Shown: positions 8,409-50,176 of the stretch, piece by piece
How the letters are laid out: each line of letters opens with the position of its first letter
How positions within the stretch are numbered: position 1 is the stretch's first letter
IMG/VR virus record: IMGVR_UViG_3300031992_004571
DNA from: a virus
Strand: one strand, 5' to 3'
Length of the DNA: 64,000 nucleotides
Position numbers and translations under genes: made by a program
The notes under the pieces: model-generated
Told to the model about the DNA's origin: nothing
Databases searched by the model: none
What the model saw: the letters and a program-made list of their open reading frames with translations, nothing else

Positions 8409-11393
8409 TTATGATAAATTTTTCTTCGGTGGAAGGTTCAAAACCTTACCGCCTTTGTTGACCTTCTGGGCAAACTCCAGAGACTTACTAATACCACTAC
8501 GATCCCAATCACGCACGAATGCTTCCAAGGCGTGCTGGTAGTCACATTTCAACTCTCGCTTATACAACTTCAAAGCCTCTTTCTCAGCCTTCTCAGTGGT
8601 ATAGCACATATAACACTCCCGAGGTTCCTCAATACCGAACACGTCACCCTCGGTACCACGCTTGATAAAGACCTCCTTGAAAGGACTGCGGCCAGCCTTG
8701 TTGTCAAGGCGGTTAATCGTAAAGATCTTCTTACAGTCGATATCAGTAAGGGCCAGTGTGGCCTTGATGTCGTCGAACTTATCCTTGAACTTGCTCTGAT
8801 CCAGCAACATGAACACGTCACTATTGCTAATGATAGCCTCCTTAACGATAGGGGAGGAAGTGATGTCCTGAATCTCCTGTGTCACAACACCGACCATTGC
8901 CCAGTGCTTACGGGCCGTCTTATACAGATACTTGATATATTCGGCCATGACAGGGGTGGCAATGGCTTTCCACGCCTCTTCGATAACCAAGCATTTCCTG
9001 CATTTACTCTTGATACGCATTTTTTGTGTAAACACGTCCATGATAATCAGAACAATAATCGGGAACAGAACGGGGTCATCCTTCACCTTATCAATCTCAA
9101 AGACGATGAACTGCTCATCGAATAACGAACTATCCATATCGTTGTTGAGGGTGTACTCCAGGGTACCACCACGATAGAACGGCTTCAGAATAGCGGCAAA
9201 CTCGTTGATATCAAAATTGATGGAGTCCTCACGCATAATCTGAGGAATACGCTGACGAGCGAACTCATAGTAACTGTTGAAAGACAGTTCAGTGACACGC
9301 AACGACTTACGCTGCTGCTCACGCTTCGTAATCTCGCGCTCGATCTTTTCCAAAAACTTACCTTCGATAATCTCAGGAGTCAATCGCTGCAACTGATTAC
9401 GGGCAGCGGTCTTCTCACCTTCGGTACTGGCTTCATCGTCAATCTTCGCCTGCAGTTTCTCACTCAGGCGCATCTTCTTCTCGTAGCGTTCACGCTCTTC
9501 ATCGGTGATATCATAAGAGCCTGTACCGTTCCTGGTCTGTAACTCTTCCTCGTACTTCTCATACTCGCCGTTACTCTTAGCGGCAATGACAAGACTCTGG
9601 TGAAGCTCTTCTCTCTCCGCTTCAGTATAACCCTTAAAGGGGGTAAAGTATTCACGATAATACTCCATGATAGTACGCTCTATGATATAACTCTCAATCT
9701 TCGTGGGTTCCTGCGTACCCTTGAAGATAAGGAAAATGAGCGACATCAGGAAGTTCTTCTTCTCACCAAAGTTCTGGGTGTACTCCACCTCAGTAACCTT
9801 GAATGGGTTCATAGAGATAGGATTCTCCTTAGTATAGGAGATATACGTTCCTCCAAAATAACTGCACTGCCCCTCGTAGCTGTCACCGGTATCCACAATG
9901 ACAACATCCGTATTCTGTTCGTAATACTGGCGTACAACGGTATTCATGAAGAATGACTTACCGCTACCCGAGGGGCCGAGAACGAAAAAATTGGAATTGT
10001 TCGTATATTTGATTTTACCTTCCTTACCCGTCGTGTCGATAGGCATCGGCACACCTTGACGGTCAGTATAATAACACTTGACTGGAGTGTCATCACCCTT
10101 GGTCTGACGCTCCTTATACATCAGACATAACGCTGCATCACTCAGCGTCAGGAAACGGTCGTAATCAGGACTCATCCTGAACACGTTACCGGGGAACGAG
10201 GCCACAAACAACTCCAACTGGTTGTAAGCCCGCTTGGAGATATGAATACTCTGACGGGCAAAGATATTCTCCAGATGGTTTGTCACCTTCTGCATGTCCT
10301 TATCGGCATCCATAGCGACAATCAAATTGAAATGGGCATAGACAAGTTGCTTGCCCTCTCTGGCAATGACCTCCTGCACCTTCTTAATATCCTCAACAGC
10401 CATCGCATTAGACGGGTTGGGGACAGAGGCATGACGGTTCTTCTTCTTATCGAGCATAGCCAGCTCTCTCTTCTGGTTGGGAAGGAAAACAACCTGGTTA
10501 TAGATGACCGTATCAACCTCTGGAATATGGTCTATCTCACTCATCAGGTCAACAGGCATTACAGCATTGTTCACCGTCATATCTACATAAGGACGGAGAA
10601 CACCAGGCAGGCCCACAGAGTCCACATCCAACAGGCTATAGACCTTTGCCTGACGGTTGCCCATATGAATCTCTTCACTGTCAACCTTGAAGTTTGTCAT
10701 GGAGAAATTCTTATCCCTGAAATTCACGGCAAAGAAACGATCGGCATACTCACGAGCCTCACTGACATTAAGGAAACGGGCCGTCTTAATGCCTCCGTCA
10801 TGTAACTGGTCCGAAACCTTACGGATCTTTACAAGGAAGTCACGCCATTTGCTGCTGTCATAACTCAGCAAGGCGCTCTTCTTACATTCCTGCGTAATAA
10901 TAAGATAGGTACTGGCAGCGGTATACTCGCGGCCATCAAAGAACCTGAAATAGGCATCGGACAGAAAGCGACGGCTCTCATCCTTGCCGCTATTGTCGAT
11001 TTGACTCATGTCAAAATGGCGTCTCACAAAGATATCCTGTTTATGCAGGGCATAGCCCTCACCCAACGTCTGGACGATAGCGGTCATCAGATTGGTGAAA
11101 TCATAATAACAATCGGTGTCTGCAGAGAACTTCTGCACAGGGTTCTCCATCTTCAGGATGGCAGAATACTCACCACTCTTCGTATAGAGGACTCCGACAC
11201 CATCCGCTTCCTCTATACTATAATAGATATCCTTGAAGACATTGGCACGCTTACCGCCTGTGCCAAAGGCCCAAACGGATACTCCCATGCCCACAAGGAA
11301 ACAAATAAATCCTATGATAACAATAACTGTCCACATAACATTAGTATTTAATGCGCCGCGAATGAGCGAAGATAAAGATACCTTTCTCTTCAT
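8409..11393 (-). CDS. traG: Conjugative transfer ATPase TraG (VirB4 family) with an inserted charged coiled-coil segment
   Basis: Walker A GPSGSGKS, N-terminal TM, and an extra E/K-rich insertion (EEELQTRNG...EKKMRLSEKLQAKIDDEAST). The true start may be the internal Met at ~11336, which would avoid the 53-nt overlap with traF. Confidence 0.9.
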   Translation of the reverse strand: MKRKVSLSSLIRGALNTNVMWTVIVIIGFICFLVGMGVSVWAFGTGGKRANVFKDIYYSIEEADGVGVLYTKSGEYSAILKMENPVQKFSADTDCYYDFTNLMTAIVQTLGEGYALHKQDIFVRRHFDMSQIDNSGKDESRRFLSDAYFRFFDGREYTAASTYLIITQECKKSALLSYDSSKWRDFLVKIRKVSDQLHDGGIKTARFLNVSEAREYADRFFAVNFRDKNFSMTNFKVDSEEIHMGNRQAKVYSLLDVDSVGLPGVLRPYVDMTVNNAVMPVDLMSEIDHIPEVDTVIYNQVVFLPNQKRELAMLDKKKNRHASVPNPSNAMAVEDIKKVQEVIAREGKQLVYAHFNLIVAMDADKDMQKVTNHLENIFARQSIHISKRAYNQLELFVASFPGNVFRMSPDYDRFLTLSDAALCLMYKERQTKGDDTPVKCYYTDRQGVPMPIDTTGKEGKIKYTNNSNFFVLGPSGSGKSFFMNTVVRQYYEQNTDVVIVDTGDSYEGQCSYFGGTYISYTKENPISMNPFKVTEVEYTQNFGEKKNFLMSLIFLIFKGTQEPTKIESYIIERTIMEYYREYFTPFKGYTEAEREELHQSLVIAAKSNGEYEKYEEELQTRNGTGSYDITDEERERYEKKMRLSEKLQAKIDDEASTEGEKTAARNQLQRLTPEIIEGKFLEKIEREITKREQQRKSLRVTELSFNSYYEFARQRIPQIMREDSINFDINEFAAILKPFYRGGTLEYTLNNDMDSSLFDEQFIVFEIDKVKDDPVLFPIIVLIIMDVFTQKMRIKSKCRKCLVIEEAWKAIATPVMAEYIKYLYKTARKHWAMVGVVTQEIQDITSSPIVKEAIISNSDVFMLLDQSKFKDKFDDIKATLALTDIDCKKIFTINRLDNKAGRSPFKEVFIKRGTEGDVFGIEEPRECYMCYTTEKAEKEALKLYKRELKCDYQHALEAFVRDWDRSGISKSLEFAQKVNKGGKVLNLPPKKNLS

Positions 11394-21420: not shown

Positions 21421-22320
21421 TTACTTCTCTTCAAACAGACTCCAGTCACGACCGACGGACACCATCTTATTTCCAAACACATAAGCATCATTGAAATCGC
21501 TGGCCGCAAAATTCCTGATGCTATCCTTCCAATAGATCTTCATACTCTTCTCAATGGCTATCAGGGTAGTCTTATACAGAAACTCATTACACTCCTTTAT
21601 GTCGTATGGCTCAAAGCCATTGGCATGACGGTTAGACATCAGCCCGATAAGGTGCTGATTACAGAAACCCGCAGTCTGCTCAATCATCCGGAAGCTGCTC
21701 TCAAAGTCCACTATTGGCTCGACACTTACAAAGGTCTTTAATCCCCACTGGCGACACCACCGCATAGTCTCGATACGCTCAGCGTTCGACGGAGCATGTG
21801 GCTCCAAGTCGTCACGTCCTGTAAGCGTAAAACCGAGTGCGATATTTATCCTATACGGACTGTCAATGAACTTACGAAACAAAGCCTTTCCTGTTCCGGC
21901 ATTCTTTGTGAGAATCTTCACAGGAATGTTATTCTTGGCAGCATATAAAGCCGCCTGAATAGTCAACTCGTAAGTATCTTGTGATAATGGATCCGTAGTA
22001 AACGAGAAGAAAATACCATGCTTAGCCAGATGGCTATACCATTTCTCACACTCACGCTTGAATACCAGGAGGGCATACTGCTCACCTGTCAGGTTACGGT
22101 ATTTCTTGGGTACATTACACTCCTTACTGAAGGAGTCCTGCAGATGGGCGTAAGGGAGTCCATTCACTGGGGCTGTGATACCCGTCCGATTATAGCAATA
22201 CTCGCATTGAAACGGACAACCACGATAGAAGTTACAACCCACTGCTGCATACTCTCTGGCAGCACCGCCAGGAGTATACAGACATTTTCCGTTTAACTTA
22301 ATCTCTTTCATAATCTTCAA
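21421..22320 (-). CDS. Radical SAM protein, SplB/DNA-photolyase-like
   Basis: GCPFQCEYCY fits the CxxxCxYCY radical SAM cluster motif of the COG1533/SplB type. 299 aa. Confidence 0.55.
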   Translation of the reverse strand: MKIMKEIKLNGKCLYTPGGAAREYAAVGCNFYRGCPFQCEYCYNRTGITAPVNGLPYAHLQDSFSKECNVPKKYRNLTGEQYALLVFKRECEKWYSHLAKHGIFFSFTTDPLSQDTYELTIQAALYAAKNNIPVKILTKNAGTGKALFRKFIDSPYRINIALGFTLTGRDDLEPHAPSNAERIETMRWCRQWGLKTFVSVEPIVDFESSFRMIEQTAGFCNQHLIGLMSNRHANGFEPYDIKECNEFLYKTTLIAIEKSMKIYWKDSIRNFAASDFNDAYVFGNKMVSVGRDWSLFEEK

Positions 22321-29162: not shown

Positions 29163-29819
29163 TTATTTAAATGCGTTAGACTTGTCATTGATACAATGTT
29201 CCGTCTGAGGGTCATTGCAGATGTTCTCACTCGGATCATCACAGAGGTCTGCACAATGGCTGCAGAGAGTACAGTCATCATCAACCCACCAACATGTACC
29301 ATGGTCGGGATGCTCACAAGGATTGTCCTCGGTACATCCGCATATACGGCATACGCCCGGAATGGGCTTATCAACGGCTTGATAAAGTTCCTCAAAATCG
29401 AAGAAATAATCGTCGAGAGCCAGATACATCAGTTCTGGAGTCACCTCCTTACTGGTATCCATCACAAAGACACGCTTTCCCATGCCGTTCATGTGACCGG
29501 CCTCGATATGCGAGGAACGTCCGGCAGGAAGCAACAAGATACAAGTATCTGCATCCTGCATGGCAGCGAAATGCTCTTCAAAGCGTTTGATGCTCTGGCG
29601 ATCCAAGAGCATACGCTTGAAATCCTTACCTTTCAGACATTTCTCTACGTAAGCACTACGGAGGTTCTGAGTGACTGAGACGGACTCCCAGACTGGAACA
29701 TCGTTACGACCATAGGGATGCTTGAAGTCATAGACCTTATGACCGCGCTTCCGTAACTCTTCTACTAACTGCTGCTGGAACTTATTCTTCCAACTGCTTG
29801 CAATATAAATCCGTGACAT
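29163..29819 (-). CDS. Nucleoside 2-deoxyribosyltransferase-like domain protein with a C-terminal Cys-rich (probable metal-binding) tail
   Basis: MSRIYIASSWKNKF... flavodoxin-like NDT/DNPH1-type N-terminus. Tail CRICGCTEDNPCEHPDHGTCWWVDDDCTLCSHCADLCDD. Confidence 0.45.
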   Translation of the reverse strand: MSRIYIASSWKNKFQQQLVEELRKRGHKVYDFKHPYGRNDVPVWESVSVTQNLRSAYVEKCLKGKDFKRMLLDRQSIKRFEEHFAAMQDADTCILLLPAGRSSHIEAGHMNGMGKRVFVMDTSKEVTPELMYLALDDYFFDFEELYQAVDKPIPGVCRICGCTEDNPCEHPDHGTCWWVDDDCTLCSHCADLCDDPSENICNDPQTEHCINDKSNAFK

Positions 29820-29826
29820 AGGCTTT

Positions 29827-30531
29827 TTATTTTGAGGGTGAATATTCCTTTATCAGACAGTCGCAGATTTCCAAAACCTGCTCTACCTTATCTAAATCAA
29901 ACCAGTCTTCAGTCCTAACACGGGTTTCCATGTCAATCCAGAACATTTCATCAGAGGGGTATTCCAACAGGGTACGCAGCTTTTCAGCCACATTGTCAGG
30001 GCCAATACCTCCCGCATAGCCGATATGTACTCCTGGGGAGGTGATAATCTGAATGGGTGTGTCGATACCACAACCACATGAGGCATCTAAAAGGTAAGAT
30101 GCAAAAGGAGGACGCTGGCCGTTCAAGAACTGCTGACACAACTCCGGGGTGTGCATCTGGATAATCACCTCGTCAATATAAGGGATGGGTGCCAGACGGC
30201 GTAACTCAGAAAACAATCTTTCAGCATTAAGGTTCAACTGGCAGCGACGGAAAATCCTCGAATTGTTGCCTAACAGTTTTTCCATCTTAAACTTCTTACC
30301 GACAGCAACGTCAATAGCAGCCTGACCGCAGAAATGAGCAGAGAGGTTCAACCCTCTGCCTCTGAGAACAGAGAGAATAAGCGGATCCAAGAATCGGTTA
30401 CCGTTTTCCTGCCAGTCATACGACAGCAACACACCGAACTCCACAAAGGGGTATTTCTTCTGGAGCTGTACCAGACGCTTCACGTCTGTACGCTCATCAA
30501 AACCTGTAAATGTTACTTTTGTTAGTTTCAT
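29827..30531 (-). CDS. Ribulose-phosphate-binding (beta/alpha)8 barrel protein, TrpF (phosphoribosylanthranilate isomerase)-like
   Basis: LLDASCGCGIDTP and GYAGGIGPDNV resemble the PRAI motifs DAxxGGxGxxFDW and LAGGLxPxNV. Confidence 0.4.
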   Translation of the reverse strand: MKLTKVTFTGFDERTDVKRLVQLQKKYPFVEFGVLLSYDWQENGNRFLDPLILSVLRGRGLNLSAHFCGQAAIDVAVGKKFKMEKLLGNNSRIFRRCQLNLNAERLFSELRRLAPIPYIDEVIIQMHTPELCQQFLNGQRPPFASYLLDASCGCGIDTPIQIITSPGVHIGYAGGIGPDNVAEKLRTLLEYPSDEMFWIDMETRVRTEDWFDLDKVEQVLEICDCLIKEYSPSK

Positions 30532-30548: not shown

Positions 30549-31367
30549 TTAGAATAGTTTCGGTTCCAAATCATAGTTATACACCATCACCTCCTGCTTG
30601 CGTCTCGCTTTTCCCTTGAAGTTCGCAACACGCATCGGCATATCCTTCACGGCCATGTTCCATCCATTCTGGGTGACATACTTACGAAGCATATCAGAGT
30701 CGAAGTTACACAACAGGAACTTTCCATGAAGGTGTGTGAGCATTTCGAGCAATTCCTCGAAATGCTCAAAGGTATAACCCTTATAGTGCTTCTGTTCACA
30801 ACCCGGATAAGGTGGATCAAGGAAAAAGAAGGTCTCTTCACGGTCACGCTGCTGGATAACCAAAGAGGCATCACGGCAGCTTATCTGCACATTCTTCAAC
30901 CGCTCATGGAGCGCAGGGGTGAATGCCTGACGGTAGTGTTCCATCACGATACCGCTATGACTGCCAGCAGTACCGTTGTCCCACTTCCAACCGCCACTCG
31001 GCGAACCAGAGAAAGACATATTGGTAACAAGCCATACCGCCCAGGCTAACTCTACCTTATTACCATAGCAACGGTCAGGATCAAGCCACCACTGATAGGC
31101 TGTCTTGTAATATCTCTCACTGTGAAGCGTCTGCTGCACTCGCTCCATCAACTCAGCAAACATCTTTTCGTCCTGGCACACCTCATAGAAGGTTATCAGA
31201 CGGTCATTGGTGTCATTGATAACCTCCAGATAACTCTTACCCTTGGCAAAGAAAACAGCACCACCGCCAAAGAACGGCTCACAATAGATTTTGTGAGACG
31301 GCATCATGTTAATGATGGTCTCTGCCAGCTGCTGCTTTCCTCCATAGTATGTTATAGGTGTACGCAT
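30549..31367 (-). CDS. Orphan DNA adenine methyltransferase, D12 class (Dam-like)
   Basis: PITYYGGKQQLAETII...YCEPFFGGGAVFF (motif I) and FFFLDPPYPG (motif IV DPPY). The track ORF begins at a TTG codon at 31403. ATG Met13 lies ~31366-31367. Confidence 0.8.
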   Translation of the reverse strand: MRTPITYYGGKQQLAETIINMMPSHKIYCEPFFGGGAVFFAKGKSYLEVINDTNDRLITFYEVCQDEKMFAELMERVQQTLHSERYYKTAYQWWLDPDRCYGNKVELAWAVWLVTNMSFSGSPSGGWKWDNGTAGSHSGIVMEHYRQAFTPALHERLKNVQISCRDASLVIQQRDREETFFFLDPPYPGCEQKHYKGYTFEHFEELLEMLTHLHGKFLLCNFDSDMLRKYVTQNGWNMAVKDMPMRVANFKGKARRKQEVMVYNYDLEPKLF

Positions 31368-31369
31368 AA

Positions 31370-32305
31370 TCAGAGATTTATAACATTGGATTTCCTTTCC
31401 CAAATCATCTTCTCAGAATCGGCAGCAATGATGGCATCCACATCCATGCCGAAATGGAGATGCAGACTCTCTAACAGGTCTTCAAGTTCCGTCAATGACT
31501 TCTTACCGAAATTGCGAAACTTCATCAAATCGGTCTTGTTACACTTCACAAGGTCGTAAAGTGTATCAACGTCAGCACCTTTTAAACAATTCAAAGACCT
31601 GACAGAAATGCCTAAATCATAGACTGGCGTATTCATCATGGCGGTAAAGGTTCCACCTTTATCACCTAACAGGTAATCATATTCTGATACTGGTGCAGTA
31701 TCGATATTGTTGATACGCTCCAGTTTCTTGACACGGTTCTGCAATGCTTCAATAACATTCTGGAAATTGGTATTGTCAAAAACAAGTTGCTTATATTCCC
31801 TACGTAACTCAGAGAACGTCTTCACCGTGGCAAGTTTGCGCACGGCATGACTGACAATCTGCATGATACGACTACGGGTAAGACCGTACTCTTCAGCCAC
31901 ATATTCCACATCCTTACCTTCAAGAAGCATCGTAAGAATAGTTTTCTCACGTTCTTTCAGTACATCGTCACCACTGGCCTCGATGATAACCGAAAAAATC
32001 TCATTGATAAGATGTGCGGGAACACCTTTTCCTAACAGGTGGATGGCAGAACGGGTATCATCAAGATTCTTCTCTAACTCCTTCTCTGCCAACTGAAGGT
32101 CACGCTTCGCCGCAAAGATTCTCTTTTCAATGAAAGCCAAGTCTGACAACGTATCGAAATACTTCTCGATAGTCGCTTTGTCTATCTTTAACAGACGGTC
32201 AACAAAATGACCTTTCAACACGCCCTTCTCAACCCAGTTGGAAATGGTCTGAGGGGTGACATCCAACAGCAGAGCTGCTTCGTCTCGGGATAAAAGCCTT
32301 GCCAT
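31370..32305 (-). CDS. Multidomain regulator: N-terminal excisionase/MerR-type HTH, central sigma-70 region-4/LuxR-like HTH, and a C-terminal RNA polymerase alpha-CTD-like (HhH) domain
   Basis: [114 protein letters not shown]. Confidence 0.5.
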
Positions 32306-32609: not shown

Positions 32610-34313
32610 TTACACTGCAATTTTTTGGAAATCAGATAAACGCTCTGCCAGGGCCTCACAGAGAACCCTTGACTGATTCACTTCAACGGCATTGCCAAGG
32701 AACTTTTTCTGTTCCGCCTGGCTGCCTATCAACACATAATCTTCAGGGAAACCCTGAATACGCTTTAACTCACGGATATTAAGCATCCTCATCTTGATAT
32801 CTATAATCCCATAAAGACCCATAAACTCCTTGATCTTACGGGTCATAGGGCTGTCTTCTTCGCATATGACAATACCCAACTCACCTTGACTGGTACTGAT
32901 GATATACGGCGGCATCTTATCCATCCGGGCAATCAGTGTGAAACAGGGATTATCAATACTGCCCCCATCACTCTTGAACGAATAGGGATTCATCAGGAAC
33001 TGGTCTGCTGAGACTAATTTCTGTTTGGGATTACAAAGAACAGCAGGATTAACTGTCTCAACAGATCCCAACTGACCGCCACCGCTGTACTCGTTGGCAA
33101 GGAATCTGTTGCCGACAATCTCTACCTCGTCAAGAGGTACATCAGGGATGGGAGAATCCAGGTCAATGTTCCCGTCATTGATGGGGACAACGGAAACAAG
33201 GGCATTCCTATCCTTCTGTGTCTCTGTAGGCGCAGGACTTTCGATGGAACTGTTATAGCCGTTCCCGAAGAAGACGGAAAGAAAGGCATTATGATCAATG
33301 CACGTTACAGTTCCAGCAGGCTTATCAAGCGTCTGGTTCTTGCTCATGGGGTCGCCGGAGAACTGCTTACTGAGAAAGTTAAACTTGACATAGCCAAGAC
33401 GGTTCTGGCAGGCAACGGTCGGTGATGGCTGATCAGTAGGCACAGGCTTGTAATTACCAGCCCTATTCATTGAATTGTACTTCAGAATCATATCATCATA
33501 CTCTTTCTTGCCTCCGGCTACAAACTTCACCAAACCAGCGTAAATACGTTCCAATGTCTTTTCACACAAAGGCTTTTTCTTTCCGAAGATGCTTGTGCCT
33601 TCATCATCGATGTCAAGCACCTCACGGACGGGCTTCCATTTCTTGTACTGATGGAACATACCGCCTTCGTCACCATTCTTGGCATATGTCTGTTCCGGGA
33701 AAACAATGGGAAGTCCCTTCTTAGCAAAGATACCGAAGAAACGCCTACGGCTGGTATAGGCCCCGAAGTCAGCGGCATTCAACAAGCGCCAGTCGTAGTC
33801 ATAGCCGTAACTCATGACTTGCTTGACCCATTTAATATAGGAACGCCCCTGGTCCTTGCTGACAGGCTTGCCGTGTTCATCAAGATCGCCCCAATACATG
33901 AATTCCCTCACATTCTCGATGTATATGTAATCGGTATATAATACGTCCATGTAACGGAAGAGGTGTTCAGCAAGGGTGCGGCTGTCTGCGTCGCGGGGCT
34001 GGCCACCCTTGGCATTACTGAAATTGGTGCACTCAAGACTGGCCCAAAGGACCGTTTTTGCATCTGGGTACTTCTTCTTCATCTTATCCAAATGCTTAAC
34101 CAGCGGACTCAACTCTAACGTCCTGATGTCCTCTGTGAAGTGCAGAGTATCAGGATGATTAGCCTGATGGGACTTGATAGCATTGGCATCATGGTTTACA
34201 CAAGCCACCACCTTGGCACATTTCTTTCCATGCAGACGTGCGTTTGCCACACCTGTAGATGTGCCGCCAGCACCGCAAAACAGGTCGATATATAAAAGAT
34301 TTACGTTATTCAT
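32610..34313 (-). CDS. Orphan DNA cytosine-5 methyltransferase (Dcm family)
   Basis: Motif I LYIDLFCGAGGTSTG (ATG at 34311-34313), motif IV-like IYIENVREF, 567 aa. Confidence 0.8.
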   Translation of the reverse strand: MNNVNLLYIDLFCGAGGTSTGVANARLHGKKCAKVVACVNHDANAIKSHQANHPDTLHFTEDIRTLELSPLVKHLDKMKKKYPDAKTVLWASLECTNFSNAKGGQPRDADSRTLAEHLFRYMDVLYTDYIYIENVREFMYWGDLDEHGKPVSKDQGRSYIKWVKQVMSYGYDYDWRLLNAADFGAYTSRRRFFGIFAKKGLPIVFPEQTYAKNGDEGGMFHQYKKWKPVREVLDIDDEGTSIFGKKKPLCEKTLERIYAGLVKFVAGGKKEYDDMILKYNSMNRAGNYKPVPTDQPSPTVACQNRLGYVKFNFLSKQFSGDPMSKNQTLDKPAGTVTCIDHNAFLSVFFGNGYNSSIESPAPTETQKDRNALVSVVPINDGNIDLDSPIPDVPLDEVEIVGNRFLANEYSGGGQLGSVETVNPAVLCNPKQKLVSADQFLMNPYSFKSDGGSIDNPCFTLIARMDKMPPYIISTSQGELGIVICEEDSPMTRKIKEFMGLYGIIDIKMRMLNIRELKRIQGFPEDYVLIGSQAEQKKFLGNAVEVNQSRVLCEALAERLSDFQKIAV

Positions 34314-34454
34314 TGTCTTTAATAAAATCTGGTTTGAACGAATAAGCATGAAGGTTACCGCCGCCCTCTCGCCAGGCGAAACCACCGTTCCATAGATGAA
34401 CCACCTCGGCATCATCCGGAATACGGCTTATCAGTTCCTTCAACTTCTTACCAT

Positions 34455-35809: not shown

Positions 35810-37273
35810 TTATGCCTCGGGCTTGTCAACGATGGATTCAACAACCTCACCGGCACGGCTGCCTACAGGACCTCCCAGATTGATGTTACGGGTAGTCTTG
35901 GCATCAAAGGTTCCAGCCTTCATAATCTCTGCCATGTCAACACCCGTTGCAGACTGGATGACATCGAAAGCCTGCTTGATAGCCACAGGAACATTACCGC
36001 TGATAGAGGCAATACCACCACCGTCAGAACCTCCACTGTAAACGCGGACATCCTTGATGGAGCTGATAGGCTCAGCGACGTTCTTAACGACCTCTGGGAG
36101 TACTCCAACGAGCATCTGAATAACAGCGGCATTGTTATACTTCTTATAGGCTTCGGCTTTCTTGTCCATAGCCTGAGCTTCGGCCTCGCCCTTCTTCTGG
36201 ATGGCGTATGCCTCGGCTTCACCTTTGGCACGGATACCTGCGGCCTCCTGCTCCATAGCATATTTCTTAGCCTCTGCCTCGCGCTTCTGCTGTTCCAGCT
36301 TTGCAAGGGCATCCTTTTCTACCTTATACTTGTCAGCATCAGCTTTCTTCTCAATCTCGGCCTTCAACTGGTTGGCCTTGATCTCAACCTGCTCCTGAGT
36401 AAGAATCTTCTCTTGCTTGGTCTTCTCAATCTCAGCTTCTACGGTCTTTGTGTTGATGGTCTTCTGCTGCTCCTGCTTCTGAATCTCATAAGCTGCATCA
36501 GCATCGGCCTTGGCGGTGTCAGCCTGCTTCTTTAAATCAGCCTGTTTCAGGGCAAGGTCATTCTTCTTAATTGCGATAGCCTTGTCGGCTTCGATGCGGG
36601 CATCGTTGGCCTCCTTCTCAGCCTTGGCAGTCTCAATCTTCACGTCACGCTCTGCCGTGGCACGATTGATGGCAGCATCCTTCTTGATGCGGGCCAGGTT
36701 GTCAGCACCCAGATCCTTGATGGCACCTTCCTTGTCGGTGACATTCTGAATATTGCAACTGATAATCTCAATACCGAGCTTCGCCATATCCGGGGATGCT
36801 TTCTTCATCACCTGATCCGAAAATCCGTCACGGTCATTGTTCAGAGGCTTCAACTCCAGTGTACCGATAATCTCACGCATGTTACCTTGCAGGGACTCCT
36901 TCAACTGTTCCGTAATCTGTGAAGGGGTCATATTCAGGAAGTTCTTAGCGGCCAGACGCGTTCCTTCACTGGTGGGAGTCACGCGAACCTTGGCAATAGC
37001 ATCCACATCGACATTGATGAAATCCTTCGTAGGAACACTTACATCAGTCTTGATGTCAACGGAGATCTGTCCGAGATACACCACATCCAGACGCTCAAAG
37101 AACGGAATACGGAAACCACCAGAGCCAATGAGCACACGAGGCTCCTTGGAGAGACCGGAAATGATGTAGGCATTCGAGGGTGGTGCCTTTACATACGAAA
37201 TAAAAACTACTACTACCAGCACTAATACTGCAATGCAGATCCAAAAGATACTGGATGAAAATAAGCTAATCAT
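35810..37273 (-). CDS. Flotillin-like SPFH/band-7 family protein
   Basis: N-terminal TM, SPFH core (GGFRIPFFERLDVVYLGQISVDIKTD) and a long Ala/Glu-rich coiled-coil tail typical of flotillin/YqiK. Confidence 0.75.
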   Translation of the reverse strand: MISLFSSSIFWICIAVLVLVVVVFISYVKAPPSNAYIISGLSKEPRVLIGSGGFRIPFFERLDVVYLGQISVDIKTDVSVPTKDFINVDVDAIAKVRVTPTSEGTRLAAKNFLNMTPSQITEQLKESLQGNMREIIGTLELKPLNNDRDGFSDQVMKKASPDMAKLGIEIISCNIQNVTDKEGAIKDLGADNLARIKKDAAINRATAERDVKIETAKAEKEANDARIEADKAIAIKKNDLALKQADLKKQADTAKADADAAYEIQKQEQQKTINTKTVEAEIEKTKQEKILTQEQVEIKANQLKAEIEKKADADKYKVEKDALAKLEQQKREAEAKKYAMEQEAAGIRAKGEAEAYAIQKKGEAEAQAMDKKAEAYKKYNNAAVIQMLVGVLPEVVKNVAEPISSIKDVRVYSGGSDGGGIASISGNVPVAIKQAFDVIQSATGVDMAEIMKAGTFDAKTTRNINLGGPVGSRAGEVVESIVDKPEA

Positions 37274-42269: not shown

Positions 42270-42608
42270 TTATACACGCGCAGAGATAGGTTGCTCTGCA
42301 CCGAACATAGAGAGTTGCGTCGGTTCTGTGCGCTTGATGATAAGCGGCTGCTCCGCACTCTTATAAATACCACAACGCTTCAGGATTTTCTTAACACCTT
42401 CGCCAGTCAGTCCCTTTGCCTTGGCAATGTTCTGGATAATGCGGTTCGGCTTAACCTGACCGGTCATAATCTCATGAGACCAACCGAGGTAAGTCTTACA
42501 AATTTCTTCGGCTCTGGTCCGGAGAAAAGTCTCATAAGTCGTTTCTAAAGTGTTAATTTTACCCATAAACTTTGTAGTTTGTACTAAATTTCGTATTTTT
42601 GCATCCAA
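42270..42608 (-). CDS. Small putative DNA-binding protein (112 aa), first gene of the long minus-strand block
   Basis: ORF abutting the divergent control region. Confidence 0.35.
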   Translation of the reverse strand: MDAKIRNLVQTTKFMGKINTLETTYETFLRTRAEEICKTYLGWSHEIMTGQVKPNRIIQNIAKAKGLTGEGVKKILKRCGIYKSAEQPLIIKRTEPTQLSMFGAEQPISARV

Positions 42609-42696
42609 AATTGCACTGAGTGTTGCATTAGTAGTTGCATCCGAAGTTGCATATTGTGGCGCAAGGAATTTTGTGCAAAGATAGATAATTATCTAT
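42599..42696. promoter_or_regulatory. Divergent control region with four TTGCAT repeats at 11-12 bp phasing and a perfect 16-bp palindrome (atagataattatctat)
   Basis: TTGCAT at 42599, 42624, 42635 and 42647. Palindrome at 42681-42696. Confidence 0.5.
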
Positions 42697-42751
42697 AAAA
42701 AATAGAGAAATGTCTATATTTTTAATGTAATTTAACTATAATTATAGAAAA

Positions 42752-43174
42752 ATGGCAATAAATATAGGCCTTTTCCATGTAGGAGAGGCAATTAAAGATA
42801 GAATAAAATCCCTGAAGATGACTCAGGCAGATTTCGCAGAAATACTCAAAATGACGCAACCAAGCGTCAATGCTATGCTGAAAAAATCAAGCATGGACAC
42901 TGATGATTTAAAACGCATCAGCATACATCTTGACTATAACTTCTTTGAGGACTTCTGTCCTGATCTGAAACAGAAAAGGGAACAGCAAATAGCACATGCA
43001 GAAGCTGAGGGTGAGAGCGAGACAATAAAAGAACTTGTTAGACAAATGTCTTACCTGCGAAGCGAAAACATACGGAAAGACAAAGAAATAGAAAGACTGC
43101 TTGCGGCAATCGACACATTCACGTCGATAAAAAACAAAGAAGCATCAGAAACCAAAAAAATCGCAAATGTGTAG
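42752..43174 (+). CDS. XRE-family HTH transcriptional regulator with a coiled-coil C-terminus
   Basis: LKMTQADFAEILKMTQPSVNAMLKK is a classic XRE HTH. Confidence 0.6.
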   Translation: MAINIGLFHVGEAIKDRIKSLKMTQADFAEILKMTQPSVNAMLKKSSMDTDDLKRISIHLDYNFFEDFCPDLKQKREQQIAHAEAEGESETIKELVRQMSYLRSENIRKDKEIERLLAAIDTFTSIKNKEASETKKIANV

Positions 43175-44160: not shown

Positions 44161-44222
44161 GTTGAGAATATGTTGAGATGATTTATTGGGGCTGTTGAGA
44201 GCAAGTTGAGAATAAGTTGAGA
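44161..44222 (+). promoter_or_regulatory. Five direct GTTGAGA repeats ending 8 bp before the integrase ATG (candidate arm-type sites or operator)
   Basis: gttgagaatatgttgagatga...ctgttgagagcaagttgagaataagttgagaaaa. Confidence 0.6.
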
Positions 44223-44229
44223 AAAAATT

Positions 44230-45708
44230 ATGGCCACTTTTAAAATTACGGTACAAAAGCAAAGAACAGACGGATACTGGCCCGTCTATATCAGAGTCAT
44301 CCATCATCGAGAAAGCGCGTTTATGAAAACCGACAAAATGGTGGATAATAAAGGCATTGTCAAAACTACAAAAGAGGTTAAAGACCCTTTTGTAAGAAAA
44401 GCTTGTGACTTGCTCATAACAGATTACATTGATCGACTTAATAAAGTTGATACAAGCACCTGGTCTGCACAAGACGTAGTAAAGTTTCTGAAAGAAGGCA
44501 CATCTGATGTGTGTTTTTCAGATTACGCCCGACAATATCAGGCAAAAATGATACAGGAAGGTCATGCGCGTAACGCACGAACTTACGAACTTGCATATCA
44601 GAATATGGAACTGTATGCCGGTACAAATAAAGTGATGTTCTCACATATAACATCAGCTTTCATTAACGGATGGATAAAATCCCTATCAACAACGGCCAGA
44701 GCAAAAGAACAGTACCCCGTCTGCATCAGACAGATTTTCAAACAAGCCCTTCTTGATTATAACGACTATGATACAGGGCTGATACGAATAACAACGAACC
44801 CATGGCCCAAAGTGAAAATACCTAAGAGTGATAACCCTCAACACAGGGCTATCACAATGGAAGAGTGCCGGGCATTCTTTACTGCCCAACTACCGGAAAG
44901 CGATAGAAAATTCCCGTTATCAGAACTTGGAAGAGACGTAGCAATGATGATACTATGCCTTGCCGGTATAAATACCGTTGATATTTTCTTCCTCGAAAAG
45001 AAAAACTATCGCGACGGTATCATCTGCTACGAAAGAAGAAAAACAAGGGAAGCAAGAGCAGATAATGCTTACTTTGAAATTCGCGTTCCAAACATTCTAC
45101 AGGATATCGTTCAAAAATATCTTGATAAGACGGATTCTCCGTACTTATTCAACTTCCACAAGCGTCTATCATCTTATGACAGCTTTAATGCAAACGTAAA
45201 CATTGGTATCCGTCAGATATGTGAGAAAGTGCTTGGTATAGAGCATGGTAAAGGGTATAGCGGATATACCTTCCGTCATACCTGGGCGACTGTTGCACAG
45301 AATGAATGTGGTGCCTCTCTGGCAGAAGTGGATTTTGGCTTGAATCACGCTCATAAAACCAGGTTGGCACGTACTTATGTGAAGATTGACTTCACACCTG
45401 CTTGGATATTAAATGAAAAGGTAATTGAGAAAATCTTCTTCACAGAAGAAAACTCTCGTGAACACAAAGAAGAACAGGATAATCATTTTGAGCGTTTTTC
45501 CTTCAAACAACTTATCAAAGGTACACTGTACTTTCGTGGACGCATCATAAGTACAGTTGAAGATGTCGGTTTCAACAATGTTGAAGATGTCATCAAGGTA
45601 CTCATGAAAAACCTTCCTGATACCATCCCTACCAGATCTCTCGTTCAGATACGTATCGAAAACAAAGACAAGCAACAAACCAAAGACTATACCCGAACGG
45701 TAAAATAG
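44230..45708 (+). CDS. int: Tyrosine recombinase/integrase (Bacteroides CTn/NBU-type, N-terminal arm-binding domains)
   Basis: 492 aa. Catalytic region GYTFRHTWATVAQNE...LNHA (R-H-x-x-R...Y family). Confidence 0.8.
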   Translation: MATFKITVQKQRTDGYWPVYIRVIHHRESAFMKTDKMVDNKGIVKTTKEVKDPFVRKACDLLITDYIDRLNKVDTSTWSAQDVVKFLKEGTSDVCFSDYARQYQAKMIQEGHARNARTYELAYQNMELYAGTNKVMFSHITSAFINGWIKSLSTTARAKEQYPVCIRQIFKQALLDYNDYDTGLIRITTNPWPKVKIPKSDNPQHRAITMEECRAFFTAQLPESDRKFPLSELGRDVAMMILCLAGINTVDIFFLEKKNYRDGIICYERRKTREARADNAYFEIRVPNILQDIVQKYLDKTDSPYLFNFHKRLSSYDSFNANVNIGIRQICEKVLGIEHGKGYSGYTFRHTWATVAQNECGASLAEVDFGLNHAHKTRLARTYVKIDFTPAWILNEKVIEKIFFTEENSREHKEEQDNHFERFSFKQLIKGTLYFRGRIISTVEDVGFNNVEDVIKVLMKNLPDTIPTRSLVQIRIENKDKQQTKDYTRTVK

Positions 45709-46062: not shown

Positions 46063-46758
46063 ATGAATACTTCATCAGTTTCCAACCTTTCAATCAAAAA
46101 CTGGTCAAAAGATGACCAGCCCATTCAAAGAATGCAGTCATTAGGTACTCAAAGCCTTTCTGACGCAGAACTGCTTGCAGTACTAATCGGCAGCGGCACT
46201 AAGGGCCGTTCAGCCGTAGAAATCGCAAGAGACCTTCTCGCGAAGTTCAATAACAGTCTAAACGCCATTGGCAAGGCACGACTGGATGAGATAACATCTG
46301 TTGAAGGCATTGGTCTTACCACCGCCTGCAGAATATCCGCTGCCATTGAAATTGGCAAGCGTAGAACAAAAACTGACGAAACTCCTGACCTCGGTACAGC
46401 AGTCAGAATCTACAATTTTATGCTCCCAATCATGAAAGATCTTGATACTGAAGAATTTCATATCATACTGATGAACCAGAACTTCCACTTTATAAAGCGT
46501 TTACGCATTTCTAAGGGTGGTATCTCTGAAACAGCTGTTGACATCCGTATCATTATACGTGAAGCTGTTCTTAATAACGCTACCATTTTGGCCTGCTGCC
46601 ATAATCATCCCAGTGGTTCTCTCAGACCCAGTAGGGCTGATGAAGAACTAACACGTTCAATCAAAAACGCCTGTCAGCTGATGCGCATCCACTTTTTGGA
46701 TCATGTCATCGTGACGGATGGAGCTTATTACTCCTTCCACGAGGAAGGTAAAATCTAA
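46063..46758 (+). CDS. radC: RadC-like JAB-domain protein
   Basis: N-terminal HhH region (LSDAELLAVLIGSGTKG) and JAB motif HNHPSG. Confidence 0.8.
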   Translation: MNTSSVSNLSIKNWSKDDQPIQRMQSLGTQSLSDAELLAVLIGSGTKGRSAVEIARDLLAKFNNSLNAIGKARLDEITSVEGIGLTTACRISAAIEIGKRRTKTDETPDLGTAVRIYNFMLPIMKDLDTEEFHIILMNQNFHFIKRLRISKGGISETAVDIRIIIREAVLNNATILACCHNHPSGSLRPSRADEELTRSIKNACQLMRIHFLDHVIVTDGAYYSFHEEGKI

Positions 46759-49195: not shown

Positions 49196-50176
49196 ATGAA
49201 AGATTTCGATTTATATAGTTATGACAGATATATCGTCAGTTTCTCTGGGGGAAAAGACAGTACCGCCCTACTGCTCTTCCTCCTTGATAATGGTGTACCG
49301 GAAGAGAAAATAGAACTCTGGCATCAGGAAATAGACGGACGTGGCCGTAGTCTCTTTGATTGGGAGGTAACACCAGACTATTGCCGAAAGTTGGGTGAAG
49401 CATTTAATATCCCAGTTTACTTTCAATGGAAAGTCGGTGGTTTTGAGCGTGAAATGACTCGCACAGAAAGCCTAACGGCACCAGTCTGTTTTGAACTTCC
49501 TAACGGTTCAATACAACAGACTGGAGGTGACAGGGGTAAACCTTCCACGCGGAATAAGTTCCCACAACCGTCACCAGACCTTCGGGTGCGCTGGTGCAGC
49601 GCATATCTGAAAGTGGATGTATGTGCAACGGCTCTTCGTCATCAAGAGAGATTTCAGAACAGCCGTACTCTGGTATTGTCTGGTGAACGGGGTGAGGAAA
49701 GTAAACAGCGTGCAGGATATGCCATCATTGAACCTGACAGGGCAGATCTGAGGAATGGACGTAACCCCAGATACATTGACCGCTTCCGTCCTATTCGTGA
49801 CTGGAAGGAAAAGCAAATATGGGATATACTGGAGAAATACCGTGTTCGTCCTCATCCATGCTACTTCATGGGGTTCGGACGGTGCTCGTGCAAATTCTGT
49901 GTATTCGGTAACTGTCATCAGTTTGCCTCTGCTGCCTGTGTGAGTCACGACCAGGCCAATGACTTGATAAAGTTTGAGAAAGATTTCGGGTACACGATGA
50001 AACGTGATACAGACCTCGCTTCTCTTATCCGTAAGGGTGTTCCTTATGACTCCATCACGGAAGAATTAAGACAAATTGCCACTTCATACGAATATACTGC
50101 ACCTGTGTTTATCTCTGATAAAGAGACTTGGCAACTTCCTGCAGGAGCCTTCCGTAAATGCGGTGGCCCATCATAA
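49196..50176 (+). CDS. PAPS reductase-family (PP-loop) protein with a C-terminal Cys cluster
   Basis: PP-loop YIVSFSGGKDSTALLL. Cys cluster GFGRCSCKFCVFGNC. Confidence 0.65.
   Translation: MKDFDLYSYDRYIVSFSGGKDSTALLLFLLDNGVPEEKIELWHQEIDGRGRSLFDWEVTPDYCRKLGEAFNIPVYFQWKVGGFEREMTRTESLTAPVCFELPNGSIQQTGGDRGKPSTRNKFPQPSPDLRVRWCSAYLKVDVCATALRHQERFQNSRTLVLSGERGEESKQRAGYAIIEPDRADLRNGRNPRYIDRFRPIRDWKEKQIWDILEKYRVRPHPCYFMGFGRCSCKFCVFGNCHQFASAACVSHDQANDLIKFEKDFGYTMKRDTDLASLIRKGVPYDSITEELRQIATSYEYTAPVFISDKETWQLPAGAFRKCGGPS

What the first reader, a model, noticed from the sequence alone, without database searches (positions are those of the whole stretch)
31370..32305. Regulator combining an excisionase/MerR-type HTH, a sigma-70 region-4-like HTH and an RNA polymerase alpha-CTD-like HhH module
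The N-terminus ([28 protein letters not shown]) is a Xis/MerR HTH. The centre ([35 protein letters not shown]) resembles sigma region 4 or LuxR. The C-terminus ([43 protein letters not shown]) closely mirrors the RpoA alpha-CTD helix-hairpin-helix. An alpha-CTD mimic fused to sigma-like and Xis-like DNA-binding modules suggests a polymerase-recruiting or hijacking factor. It sits directly upstream of, and overlapping, the D12 Dam in the long minus-strand operon.
Basis: partly seen in the sequence, partly recalled or inferred. Interest (0 to 1): 0.6.

Follow-up and report, generated by a model that had tools for sequence, protein, structure and literature searches.

The report
Mobile-element regulator carrying a borrowed polymerase domain
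A gene on a Bacteroidota conjugative element encodes a probably dimeric DNA-binding regulator whose tail is a copy of the DNA-reading end of the host RNA polymerase alpha subunit; the protein family is widespread on Bacteroidota mobile elements and has not been studied.

Summary
The 311-aa ORF at 31370-32305(-) scores above Pfam's curated cut-offs for HTH_17, Sigma70_r4 and RNA_pol_A_CTD. AlphaFold2 and Foldseek reproduce the alpha-CTD fold (0.7-1.0 A rmsd) and a sigma-region-4/LuxR/KorA-type fold.

It belongs to a large, uncharacterised family. All 145 sequences scanned (the query plus 144 full-length representatives) have the alpha-CTD, 132 have HTH_17 and 84 have Sigma70_r4. Members sit in long early or accessory operons of Bacteroidota conjugative elements, plasmids and prophage-like elements.

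The alpha-CTD module matches the Bacteroidota RpoA consensus (59-70% identity), so it was probably captured from host rpoA. The family keeps the DNA-binding "265 determinant" (R265 and G296 invariant). The surfaces that contact sigma and activators are relaxed. Two linkers have conserved heptad patterns, which suggests coiled coils.

Best reading: a dimeric mobile-element transcription regulator with alpha-CTDs tethered as A/T minor-groove readers. The layout echoes RpoA (dimer, flexible linker, alpha-CTD). Activator or repressor is unresolved, and no binding site was identified. The RNA polymerase "hijack/decoy" idea is not excluded but is less supported. I found no literature on this architecture. 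I rate it a new variant of a known kind, of moderate interest.

The parts
31370..32305 (-). Complete CDS (311 aa plus TGA stop) of the tri-modular regulator
   Evidence: ORF list. An identical protein (P0001) is called on metagenome contigs. The N-terminus MAR is invariant in the 18-sequence alignment of closer homologues.
32153..32296 (-). N-terminal excisionase/MerR-type HTH (HTH_17), residues 4-51
   Evidence: Pfam HTH_17 33.2 bits, above the 27 cut-off. Found in 132 of 145 scanned sequences. Foldseek matches excisionase/AlpA/PrtN/MerR-like phage HTHs at 1.0-1.5 A. Q19, T20, N23 and G28 are at least 90% conserved.
32033..32149 (-). Linker helix 1, predicted coiled coil, residues 53-91
   Evidence: Long helix in the AlphaFold2 model, low pLDDT. 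Hydrophobic 3-4 heptad pattern at positions 56, 63, 66, 70, 77, 81, 84, 88 and 91, conserved over 145 sequences.
31832..31966 (-). Central sigma-70 region-4-like / LuxR-KorA-class HTH, residues 114-158
   Evidence: Pfam Sigma70_r4 30.6 bits, above the 24.1 cut-off. Best PDB sequence hits are primary sigma-A region 4, e.g. 3n97_A at E 0.005. Best fold hits are sigma-A region 4, DesR/DosR, KorA and ArdK. Sigma70_r4 is detected in 84 of 145 scanned sequences.
31709..31825 (-). Linker helix 2, predicted coiled coil, residues 161-199
   Evidence: Helix 164-199 in the model. Conserved a/d heptad positions 161, 164, 167, 174, 181, 185, 188, 192 and 195, with Asn at 178 in the query. Weak coiled-coil Pfam hits over residues 160-197.
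31643..31708 (-). Poorly conserved, low-confidence flexible linker, residues 200-221
   Evidence: pLDDT below 50 for residues 199-218. Lowest conservation and column occupancy in the family alignment.
31436..31642 (-). C-terminal RNA polymerase alpha-CTD domain (helix-hairpin-helix), residues 222-290
   Evidence: Pfam RNA_pol_A_CTD 71.4 bits. PDB RpoA hits, with Bacteroidota best. 59-70% identity to 80 Bacteroidota rpoA alpha-CTDs. Fold rmsd 0.7-1.0 A. R236 (E. coli R265) and G267 (G296) are invariant in 145 sequences.
30549..31367 (-). Context: D12-class N6-adenine DNA methyltransferase gene, starting 2 nt after the target's stop
   Evidence: Pfam MethyltransfD12 92.6 bits. Junction sequence TGAttATG. 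The gene is called as 272 aa on the identical contig.
32610..34415 (-). Context: C5-cytosine DNA methyltransferase gene upstream in the same strand run (maximal ORF; called as 567 aa on the identical contig)
   Evidence: Pfam DNA_methylase 101.5 bits. The methylase-then-target order is kept in a 44%-identical Prevotella element.

Best explanation
The gene encodes a DNA-binding transcription regulator of the mobile element. Its layout is HTH_17, coiled coil, sigma-4/LuxR/KorA-like HTH, coiled coil, flexible linker, alpha-CTD. Shown here: the three folds; conservation of the layout across a large family carried on Bacteroidota mobile elements; derivation of the alpha-CTD from a Bacteroidota RpoA-like sequence; selective retention of its DNA-binding residues; and heptad periodicity in both linkers. 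Inferred: the protein dimerises through the coiled coils. The two HTH modules bind specific operator DNA in the element's promoter regions. The two flexibly tethered alpha-CTDs dock into adjacent A/T-rich minor grooves, as RNA polymerase alpha-CTDs do on UP elements, which lengthens and strengthens the footprint. The design copies RpoA itself (dimerisation module, flexible linker, alpha-CTD), with the alpha-NTD replaced by a sequence-specific DNA-binding dimer. The gene is expressed from within a long early or accessory operon that faces a divergently transcribed XRE-family (HTH_3-type) regulator gene. From there it would act as a second-tier regulator. It could repress, by occupying the upstream (UP/-33) half of promoters that RNA polymerase needs, in the manner of KorA/ArdK feedback. 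Or it could activate later genes such as the downstream tra genes. The sign of regulation is not resolved.
For: Domains exceed Pfam cut-offs. Folds are confirmed. Family size: in the 50%-identity representative library, 76 proteins at E<=1e-30, and 144 of the best 150 are full length. The layout is conserved: alpha-CTD in 145/145 scanned sequences, HTH_17 in 132/145, Sigma70_r4 in 84/145. Every examined context is a mobile element: a conjugative element with TraM/TraG in the window; syntenic Prevotella elements; a prophage-like early region next to an S24 repressor and ERF; a relaxase/ParA-proximal position; a RadC/YodL/YAcAr operon; a Chryseobacterium mobilizable plasmid beside an annotated zincin-like metallopeptidase gene; and 80 IMG/VR loci, about 70 of them near-full-length matches. 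The family alpha-CTD consensus equals the Bacteroidota RpoA consensus. DNA-determinant positions are retained (R265 1.0, N268 0.83, N294 0.90, G296 1.0, K298 0.84). The 261- and 287-determinant positions average about 0.44 and 0.52, against about 0.84 in host RpoA (determinant definitions from PMC1874639). Heptad patterns are conserved in both linkers. The central domain resembles the plasmid global regulators KorA and ArdK in fold.
Against: No binding site was identified. Repeats near the operon start cannot be assigned to this protein. No multimer or DNA-complex modelling was possible, so dimerisation and DNA binding are inferred from sequence patterns only. Some of the conserved 'DNA-binding' residues (for example G296 in the hairpin) are also structural, which weakens the selective-retention argument. 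Foldseek E-values for the central domain are weak (at least 0.13). AlphaFold2 confidence in the linkers is low (pTM 0.30). Direction of regulation is unknown.
Confidence: 0.6

Rival explanations
1. RNA polymerase hijack or decoy. The sigma-4-like module docks on the beta-flap or displaces host sigma-A region 4. The alpha-CTD copy titrates host or element factors that normally contact RpoA alpha-CTD, or competes with RNA polymerase for UP elements genome-wide. Either way host transcription is redirected or silenced in favour of the element.
For: The protein carries both of the modules that the holoenzyme uses to read the upstream half of a promoter, and they are seen together on UP/-35 DNA in 3n97, which is a top hit for both modules. 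The alpha-CTD stays close to the host RpoA consensus across the family: median 58% identity to the best host sequence, against 42% between family members. The central domain matches primary sigma-A region 4 best in sequence.
Against: The 261 (sigma-4 contact) and 287 (activator contact) surfaces are the less conserved parts of the domain in the family. The sigma-4-like module is not specifically similar to a Bacteroidota sigma-A, and it matches LuxR, KorA and ArdK folds equally well. In the one case tested, the Chryseobacterium plasmid homologue, identity did not track host class. No interaction was tested.
Confidence: 0.2
2. A recombination-directionality or architectural DNA-processing factor (excisionase-like, relaxosome or oriT accessory, or small-terminase-like). 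It would bend DNA for excision, transfer or packaging rather than control transcription.
For: The N-terminal domain belongs to the excisionase family: HTH_17, and TIGR01764 at 27.1 bits against a 28.8 cut-off. PHROG hits include excisionase and small terminase at E 1e-4 to 7e-4. JGI names close homologues 'excisionase family DNA binding protein'. One relative lies just downstream of relaxase and ParA genes.
Against: In the window the nearest integrase-like gene is about 12 kb away on the other strand. Some relatives lack a detectable HTH_17 but keep the sigma-4-like and alpha-CTD modules. The family occurs on conjugative elements, plasmids and prophage-like elements with different recombination and packaging machinery. 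The sigma-4 and alpha-CTD modules are transcription-associated.
Confidence: 0.1
3. A dedicated controller of the flanking orphan DNA methyltransferases, analogous to a C-protein, that times Dcm and Dam expression after entry into a new host.
For: The gene lies between a C5 methylase and a D12 methylase, and its stop codon is 2 nt from the Dam start. The C5 methylase is also upstream in a 44%-identical Prevotella element.
Against: The D12 methylase is absent at that position in the Prevotella element. More distant members have no adjacent methyltransferase. The protein is far larger and more complex than known C-proteins.
Confidence: 0.05

Closest known systems
RNA polymerase alpha subunit C-terminal domain (RpoA alpha-CTD, PF03118), especially of Bacteroidota (PDB 9N9P Flagellimonas taeanensis, 8DKC Porphyromonas gingivalis)
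   Same: Same fold, with rmsd 0.7-1.0 A. 59-70% identity to Bacteroidota rpoA alpha-CTDs. It shares the Bacteroidota signature [11 protein letters not shown] and ...FGMD. The DNA-binding 265 determinant is retained, and the domain is preceded by a flexible linker as in RpoA.
   Different: There is no alpha-NTD, so it cannot assemble into core polymerase: NCBIfam rpoA models score 50-75 bits against cut-offs of 228-434. The 261- and 287-determinant positions are relaxed. The domain is fused to two HTH modules and coiled coils.
Sigma-70 family region 4 (PF04545); structure 3N97 of sigma region 4 plus alpha-CTD on UP/-35 DNA
   Same: The helix-turn-helix matches region 4.2 ([16 protein letters not shown] against TRERIRQIENKALRKL). 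Pfam score is above the cut-off. Top fold hits are sigma-A region 4.
   Different: There are no sigma regions 2 or 3: TIGR02937 scores 25.4 against a 42.9 cut-off. From my own knowledge of sigma-70, two of the -35-contacting positions differ (E585 to S, R588 to M). The loop between regions 4.1 and 4.2 is shorter. It is not a sigma factor.
KorA (RK2/RP4) and ArdK (R388), plasmid-encoded global or leading-region repressors
   Same: The central domain has a similar HTH fold: prob 0.95-0.99, rmsd 1.6-2.4 A over 41-56 residues. Like them it is encoded within a transfer-associated accessory operon of a mobile element.
   Different: The Pfam KORA score is below its cut-off, 19.2 against 26.7. KorA and ArdK are about 100-aa single-domain dimers without HTH_17 or alpha-CTD.
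Small HTH_17 regulators and excisionases of mobile elements (from my own knowledge: CTnDOT Xis2c/Xis2d, AlpA, PrtN, TorI)
   Same: Same N-terminal fold. From memory, Xis2c and Xis2d of the Bacteroides element CTnDOT act both in excision and as activators of transfer operons. That is a plausible analogue for a regulatory role on a Bacteroidota conjugative element.
   Different: Those proteins are about 60-120 aa and single-domain. This one adds a second HTH, two coiled coils and an alpha-CTD, and it is not next to an integrase.
Phage proteins annotated 'RNA polymerase, alpha subunit, C-terminal' (111-240 aa; uncultured Caudovirales, Rhodococcus phage Finch) and the alpha-CTD-like stretch of BREX PglW
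   Same: They show that alpha-CTD-like helix-hairpin-helix modules occur outside RpoA on mobile elements and in defence systems.
   Different: They are shorter or have unrelated architectures, share only 14-25% identity with the query in the aligned regions, and none is characterised. The tri-modular layout was not seen among them.
Phage Mu Mor/C activators and T4 AsiA/MotA sigma appropriation (from my own knowledge)
   Same: These are mobile-element factors that act at the sigma-4/alpha-CTD corner of the promoter complex. Weak Mor-family hits fall on the central domain of the query and of 2 of the 145 scanned sequences.
   Different: Those factors contact the host's sigma-4 and alpha-CTD. They do not carry copies of them. 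Mor scores are below the cut-off.

Membership tests
RNA polymerase alpha subunit (RpoA) | N-terminal dimerisation and core-assembly domain (alpha-NTD) | tested here: not met
   Pfam gives no alpha-NTD hit. NCBIfam rpoA equivalog models match only residues about 185-300, at 40-75 bits against cut-offs of 228-523.
RNA polymerase alpha subunit (RpoA) | C-terminal helix-hairpin-helix domain with the DNA-binding 265 determinant | tested here: met
   PF03118 at 71.4 bits. Rmsd 0.7-1.0 A to solved alpha-CTDs. The equivalents of R265, N268, C269, G296, K298 and S299 are all present, and R265 and G296 are invariant in the family.
Sigma-70 family sigma factor | Region 2 (core binding and -10 recognition) | tested here: not met
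   No Sigma70_r2 hit. TIGR02937 scores 25.4 bits against a 42.9 cut-off and matches only model positions 109-162.
Sigma-70 family sigma factor | Region 4 HTH | tested here: met
   PF04545 at 30.6 bits, above the 24.1 cut-off. Best PDB sequence and fold hits are sigma-A region 4. The hit is above E 0.001 in 84 of 145 scanned sequences.
Excisionase / HTH_17 (MerR superfamily) DNA-binding proteins | HTH_17 domain | tested here: met
   PF12728 at 33.2 bits, above the 27 cut-off. TIGR01764 falls just below its cut-off, 27.1 against 28.8. The fold matches excisionase, AlpA and PrtN.
Excisionase / recombination directionality factor | Functional and genomic coupling to a site-specific recombinase | tested here: not met
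   The nearest integrase-like gene (44230-45708, + strand) is about 12 kb away on the other strand. Relatives occur without an adjacent integrase. Excision activity itself cannot be tested with these tools.
LuxR/GerE-type regulators | GerE HTH above the family cut-off | tested here: not met
   PF00196 at 21.7 bits against a 23.5 cut-off. The fold is nonetheless similar to DesR and DosR.
KorA/ArdK plasmid repressors | KORA domain above the cut-off; about 100-aa dimeric repressor | tested here: not met
   PF16509 at 19.2 bits against a 26.7 cut-off. Only the fold is similar. The protein is 311 aa with extra modules.
BREX PglW | Ser/Thr kinase architecture of about 1400 aa | tested here: not met
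   Only the alpha-CTD stretch matches: 25 bits against a 990 cut-off, and PADLOC 18.7 bits.
Mu Mor/C activators | Mor domain above the cut-off | tested here: not met
   PF08765 at 14.4 bits against a 24.9 cut-off.

The most novel reading that the evidence does not exclude
The family is a trans-acting surrogate of the upstream-promoter-reading parts of the holoenzyme. Bacteroidota mobile elements captured the host alpha-CTD and joined it to a sigma-4-like HTH and a specific HTH. The resulting dimer either occupies UP/-33 promoter DNA in place of RNA polymerase (promoter-mimicry silencing of host or element promoters) or docks onto RNA polymerase and supplies extra alpha-CTD and sigma-4 contacts to element promoters. 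That would be a previously undescribed way for mobile elements to rewire host transcription.
Probability: 0.18. Interest if true: 0.8.

Novelty: new variant of a known kind. Interest (0 to 1): 0.5.

Why it matters
Transcription initiation in Bacteroidota is unusual (a -33/-7 promoter architecture and a distinctive primary sigma factor; this is my own background knowledge), and little is known about how their abundant conjugative elements and prophages control long early operons. This family is widespread on Bacteroidota mobile elements. It is the first case I could find of a regulator that carries a copy of the host polymerase's own DNA-reading alpha-CTD. If the alpha-CTD works in trans, the family would show how UP-element-type minor-groove reading can be reused outside RNA polymerase. 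It could also provide a handle for controlling gene transfer, or for building synthetic promoters and regulators, in gut and rumen Bacteroidota.

Tried and rejected
1. The genome-contig scan with the family alignment used the pattern RNFGKKSL and returned only host rpoA genes. It gave no family context, but it supplied 80 Bacteroidota alpha-CTDs for comparison.
2. A Bio.Phylo neighbour-joining tree of the alpha-CTDs timed out. I replaced it with identity statistics and average-linkage clustering. The family domains do not form one clean clade. They look like a star-shaped divergence from an RpoA-like ancestor, so single and repeated capture cannot be told apart.
3. Host tracking: the alpha-CTD of the Chryseobacterium plasmid homologue is no closer to Flavobacteriales rpoA than to Bacteroidales rpoA. 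That gives no support for host-specific mimicry, but it is one data point.
4. Promoter scans gave no usable promoter. The sigma-70 consensus scan and the Bacteroides-type TTTG-N17-23-TAnnTTTG search (3 hits against 2.2 expected) were both uninformative.
5. A binding-site hunt found TTGCAT and ATGCAAC repeats at the operon start. They cannot be attributed to this protein, because the element encodes several other HTH proteins.
6. PADLOC matched the target only through a sub-threshold alpha-CTD-like hit to PglW. Its other hits were weak coiled-coil matches (LmuB, JetC, DruC) in two neighbouring ORFs.
7. The afdb50 fold library was unavailable.
8. Seven full-text literature searches found no description of this architecture.
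9. I considered a small-terminase role and a C-protein role. Both are rejected as primary explanations; see the rival explanations.
Full report
OBSERVATION

The minus-strand ORF 31370..32305 encodes 311 aa from an ATG. A GTG 45 nt upstream would add 15 residues. However, Met1-Ala2-Arg3 is invariant in the 18-sequence alignment of closer homologues, so the ATG is the likely start.

Pfam places three domains above their curated cut-offs:
- RNA_pol_A_CTD: 71.4 bits, E 5e-20, residues 224-279.
- HTH_17: 33.2 bits, residues 4-51.
- Sigma70_r4: 30.6 bits, residues 114-158.

NCBIfam rpoA models match only the last 90 or so residues and stay far below their cut-offs. The sigma-70 superfamily model matches only its region-4 end. 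The protein therefore contains an alpha-CTD and a sigma-4-like HTH, but it is neither an alpha subunit nor a sigma factor.

One detail of the finding needs correcting. The overlap with the Dam gene holds only for the maximal TTG ORF. The junction reads TGAttATG, so the Dam ATG at 31367 lies 2 nt after the target's stop codon.

STRUCTURE

An AlphaFold2 model built on 18 homologues gives three folded modules at pLDDT about 70-89: residues 1-47, about 97-160, and 218-290. They are joined by long, low-confidence helices (53-91 and 164-199) and a disordered stretch (199-218).

- Alpha-CTD: Foldseek against the PDB superposes the C-terminal module on E. coli, Caulobacter and Vibrio alpha-CTDs at 0.7-1.0 A over 65-67 residues. 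The hits include 3N97, where alpha-CTD and sigma region 4 sit side by side on UP/-35 DNA.
- Central module: a separate model (pLDDT 75) hits sigma-A region 4 first (prob 0.9-0.99). It also hits DesR/DosR (LuxR type) and the plasmid regulators KorA and ArdK. E-values are weak because the domain is small. In sequence, the best solved relatives are primary sigma-A region 4 (3n97_A E 0.005), with [16 protein letters not shown] aligned to TRERIRQIENKALRKL.
- N-terminal module: it superposes on phage excisionase/MerR/AlpA/PrtN-type HTHs at 1.0-1.5 A.

A LARGE CONSERVED FAMILY

The 90%-cluster search lists 120 best hits, 114 of them near-full-length (over 85% query coverage) at 44-100% identity. The only names given are 'excisionase family DNA binding protein', 'hypothetical protein' and 'helix-turn-helix domain-containing protein [Prevotella sp.]'.

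The exhaustive search of 50%-identity representatives finds 76 proteins at E<=1e-30. Of the best 150, 144 are full-length proteins of about 300 aa, at 18-47% identity to the query. Scanning the query and those 144 against Pfam gives RNA_pol_A_CTD in 145/145, HTH_17 in 132/145 and Sigma70_r4 in 84/145. Related HTH models pick up others.

The best-conserved blocks are the N-terminal HTH (Q19, T20, N23, G28) and the alpha-CTD (R236 and G267 invariant). Both linker helices show a conserved 3-4 hydrophobic heptad pattern across all 145 sequences. Helix 2 has an Asn at a core position in the query. I read these as coiled coils and hence probable dimerisation. This is inferred, not shown.

ORIGIN OF THE ALPHA-CTD

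The best solved relatives are Bacteroidota polymerases: 9N9P from Flagellimonas taeanensis and 8DKC from Porphyromonas gingivalis. They score 1e-18 to 1e-21, against about 1e-11 for E. coli.

Against 80 Bacteroidota rpoA genes recovered by the genome scan, the module is 59-70% identical. Position by position, the family consensus equals the Bacteroidota RpoA consensus, including lineage-specific residues ([12 protein letters not shown] and FGMD, against E. coli TPNLGKKSLTEI and LGMR).

Family members are closer to the host consensus (median 58%) than to each other (42%). This is a star-like divergence from an RpoA-like ancestor. One capture and repeated capture cannot be distinguished. A single test of host tracking, on the Chryseobacterium plasmid, was negative.

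WHICH SURFACE IS KEPT

I used the E. coli determinants as defined in PMC1874639: 265 for DNA, 261 for sigma-4, and 287 for CRP and other activators.

- Strongly retained DNA-binding positions: R265 1.00, N268 0.83, N294 0.90, G296 1.00, K298 0.84, plus R293 0.91 and E302 0.93.
- 261-determinant positions average about 0.44, against about 0.84 in host RpoA.
- 287-determinant positions average about 0.52, against about 0.84 in host RpoA. For example, N285 is 0.96 in hosts and 0.21 in the family.

This argues that the module is kept as a DNA minor-groove reader rather than as a protein-contact decoy. The caveat is that some of the conserved residues are also structural.

GENOMIC CONTEXT

The window is a Bacteroidota-type conjugative element. 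It carries TraM (724-1962), TraG/VirB4-like (8409-11393), DUF5045, DUF1896, ParA and RadC.

The target lies inside a long run of tightly packed minus-strand genes. This run begins near 42566 and faces a divergent XRE/HTH_3 gene at 42752-43174. It passes an SPFH/flotillin gene, a C5 methylase, the target, a D12 methylase, a nucleoside-deoxyribosyltransferase-like gene, DUF1896 and Lin1244_N, and continues towards the tra genes.

Contexts of relatives:
- The order flotillin, C5 methylase, target, DUF1896, Lin1244_N is kept in a 44%-identical Prevotella element, which lacks the D12 methylase at that position.
- A 28%-identical member sits in a prophage-like early region: integrases, a divergent S24 repressor, a small HTH_17 gene, then the target, PAPS reductase, ERF and DUF3127.
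- Another lies just after relaxase and ParA genes and before DUF3127, DUF4494 and DUF4134.
- Another is in an operon with YAcAr, YodL and RadC.
- A Chryseobacterium mobilizable plasmid has a relative between a thermonuclease gene and an annotated zincin-like metallopeptidase gene. RefSeq annotates it as 'DNA-directed RNA polymerase subunit alpha C-terminal domain-containing protein', and it lacks a detectable HTH_17.
- Eighty IMG/VR viral loci were returned, about 70 with near-full-length matches at 27-37% identity.

There is no constant neighbouring gene, so the protein probably acts without a dedicated partner. The common theme is an early, leading-type or accessory operon of a mobile element.

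MECHANISM

Best supported, at roughly 0.6: a dimeric DNA-binding transcription regulator of the element. The HTH_17 and sigma-4/KorA-like modules would supply sequence specificity. The two alpha-CTDs hang on flexible linkers, exactly as in RpoA, and would bind adjacent A/T-rich minor grooves.

Whether the protein represses or activates cannot be decided here. It could repress by occupying the UP/-33 half of promoters, in the style of KorA/ArdK feedback. It could instead activate later operons such as the tra genes.

Rivals:
- RNA polymerase hijack or decoy (about 0.2): attractive because both holoenzyme upstream-reading modules are present, but the relevant contact surfaces are the relaxed ones.
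- Excision, relaxosome or packaging architectural factor (about 0.1).
- Dedicated methyltransferase controller (about 0.05): contradicted by the distant contexts.

COMPARISON AND NOVELTY

The closest known entities are RpoA alpha-CTD, sigma region 4, KorA/ArdK, small HTH_17 regulators (from memory, Xis2c/Xis2d of CTnDOT, AlpA and PrtN), and uncharacterised phage 'alpha-CTD' proteins in BFVD.

The protein fails the membership tests for RpoA, sigma factors, LuxR, KorA, Mor and PglW as whole families. It shares individual domains with them.

Seven full-text searches found no description of this architecture. That is absence of evidence within an open-access library, not proof that it has never been described.

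I class it as a new variant of a known kind: a mobile-element transcription regulator with a captured host alpha-CTD. Interest is moderate (0.5). The domain capture and the RpoA-like 'dimer, linker, alpha-CTD' design are surprising and easy to test. The function remains inferred.

Noticed in passing
window 42595-42652 (with 42566-42752 as the whole intergenic switch): Five tandem 12-bp units (ATGCAAC on the minus strand, TTGCAT on the plus strand) lie in the leader between the first gene of the long minus-strand operon (ATG about 42566) and a divergent XRE/HTH_3 gene (42752-43174, +). A Bacteroides -7-like TAtcTTTG sits at about 42683-42676, and an A/T-rich palindromic stretch at 42685-42770. 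This looks like an operator array of the element's genetic switch. Which protein binds it is unknown.
   Followed up: partly
window 44161-44222: Five copies of GTTGAGA, at 11- or 22-bp spacing, lie directly upstream of the integrase-like gene 44230-45708 (weak Phage_int_SAM_5 hit). They could be arm-type or regulatory repeats.
   Followed up: no
window 29163-29819 and 29827-30531 (minus strand): Immediately downstream of the Dam gene are a 234-aa protein with no family hit and a nucleoside 2-deoxyribosyltransferase-like protein (phrog_12607, 1.5e-31) with a Cys/His-rich C-terminal tail. Together with the two orphan methylases this looks like a DNA-modification or anti-restriction cassette.
   Followed up: no
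window 35810-37273 (minus strand): An SPFH/flotillin gene (Band_7 plus Flot) lies inside the conjugative-element operon. It is conserved at the same position in the 44%-identical Prevotella element. Its role on a mobile element is unclear.
   Followed up: no
window 5802-8369 (minus strand): An 855-aa ORF next to TraG has no real Pfam domain, only weak coiled-coil hits, and sits among conjugation genes.
   Followed up: no
L088 9318-10000: The 680-bp gap upstream of the 28%-identical prophage-like homologue contains a tRNA-Ala(tgc)-like gene (9820-9904, 85 nt, ARAGORN). A second tRNA-like 3' end near 9600-9645 was not called.
   Followed up: partly
P0199 (1181 aa), P0221 (365 aa), P0240 (1031 aa): Unrelated proteins from the representative search carry 3-9 or more tandem alpha-CTD-like repeats; P0240 has 9 matched stretches. 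This shows that the alpha-CTD helix-hairpin-helix has been multiplied as a repeat module elsewhere.
   Followed up: no
window 21421-22320, 46063-46758, 49196-50176: A radical-SAM gene, a RadC gene and a PAPS-reductase-like gene are on the element. PAPS reductase, DUF6633 and DUF3127 also recur next to family members in prophage-like and conjugative contexts, which suggests a gene pool shared between Bacteroidota conjugative elements and phages.
   Followed up: no
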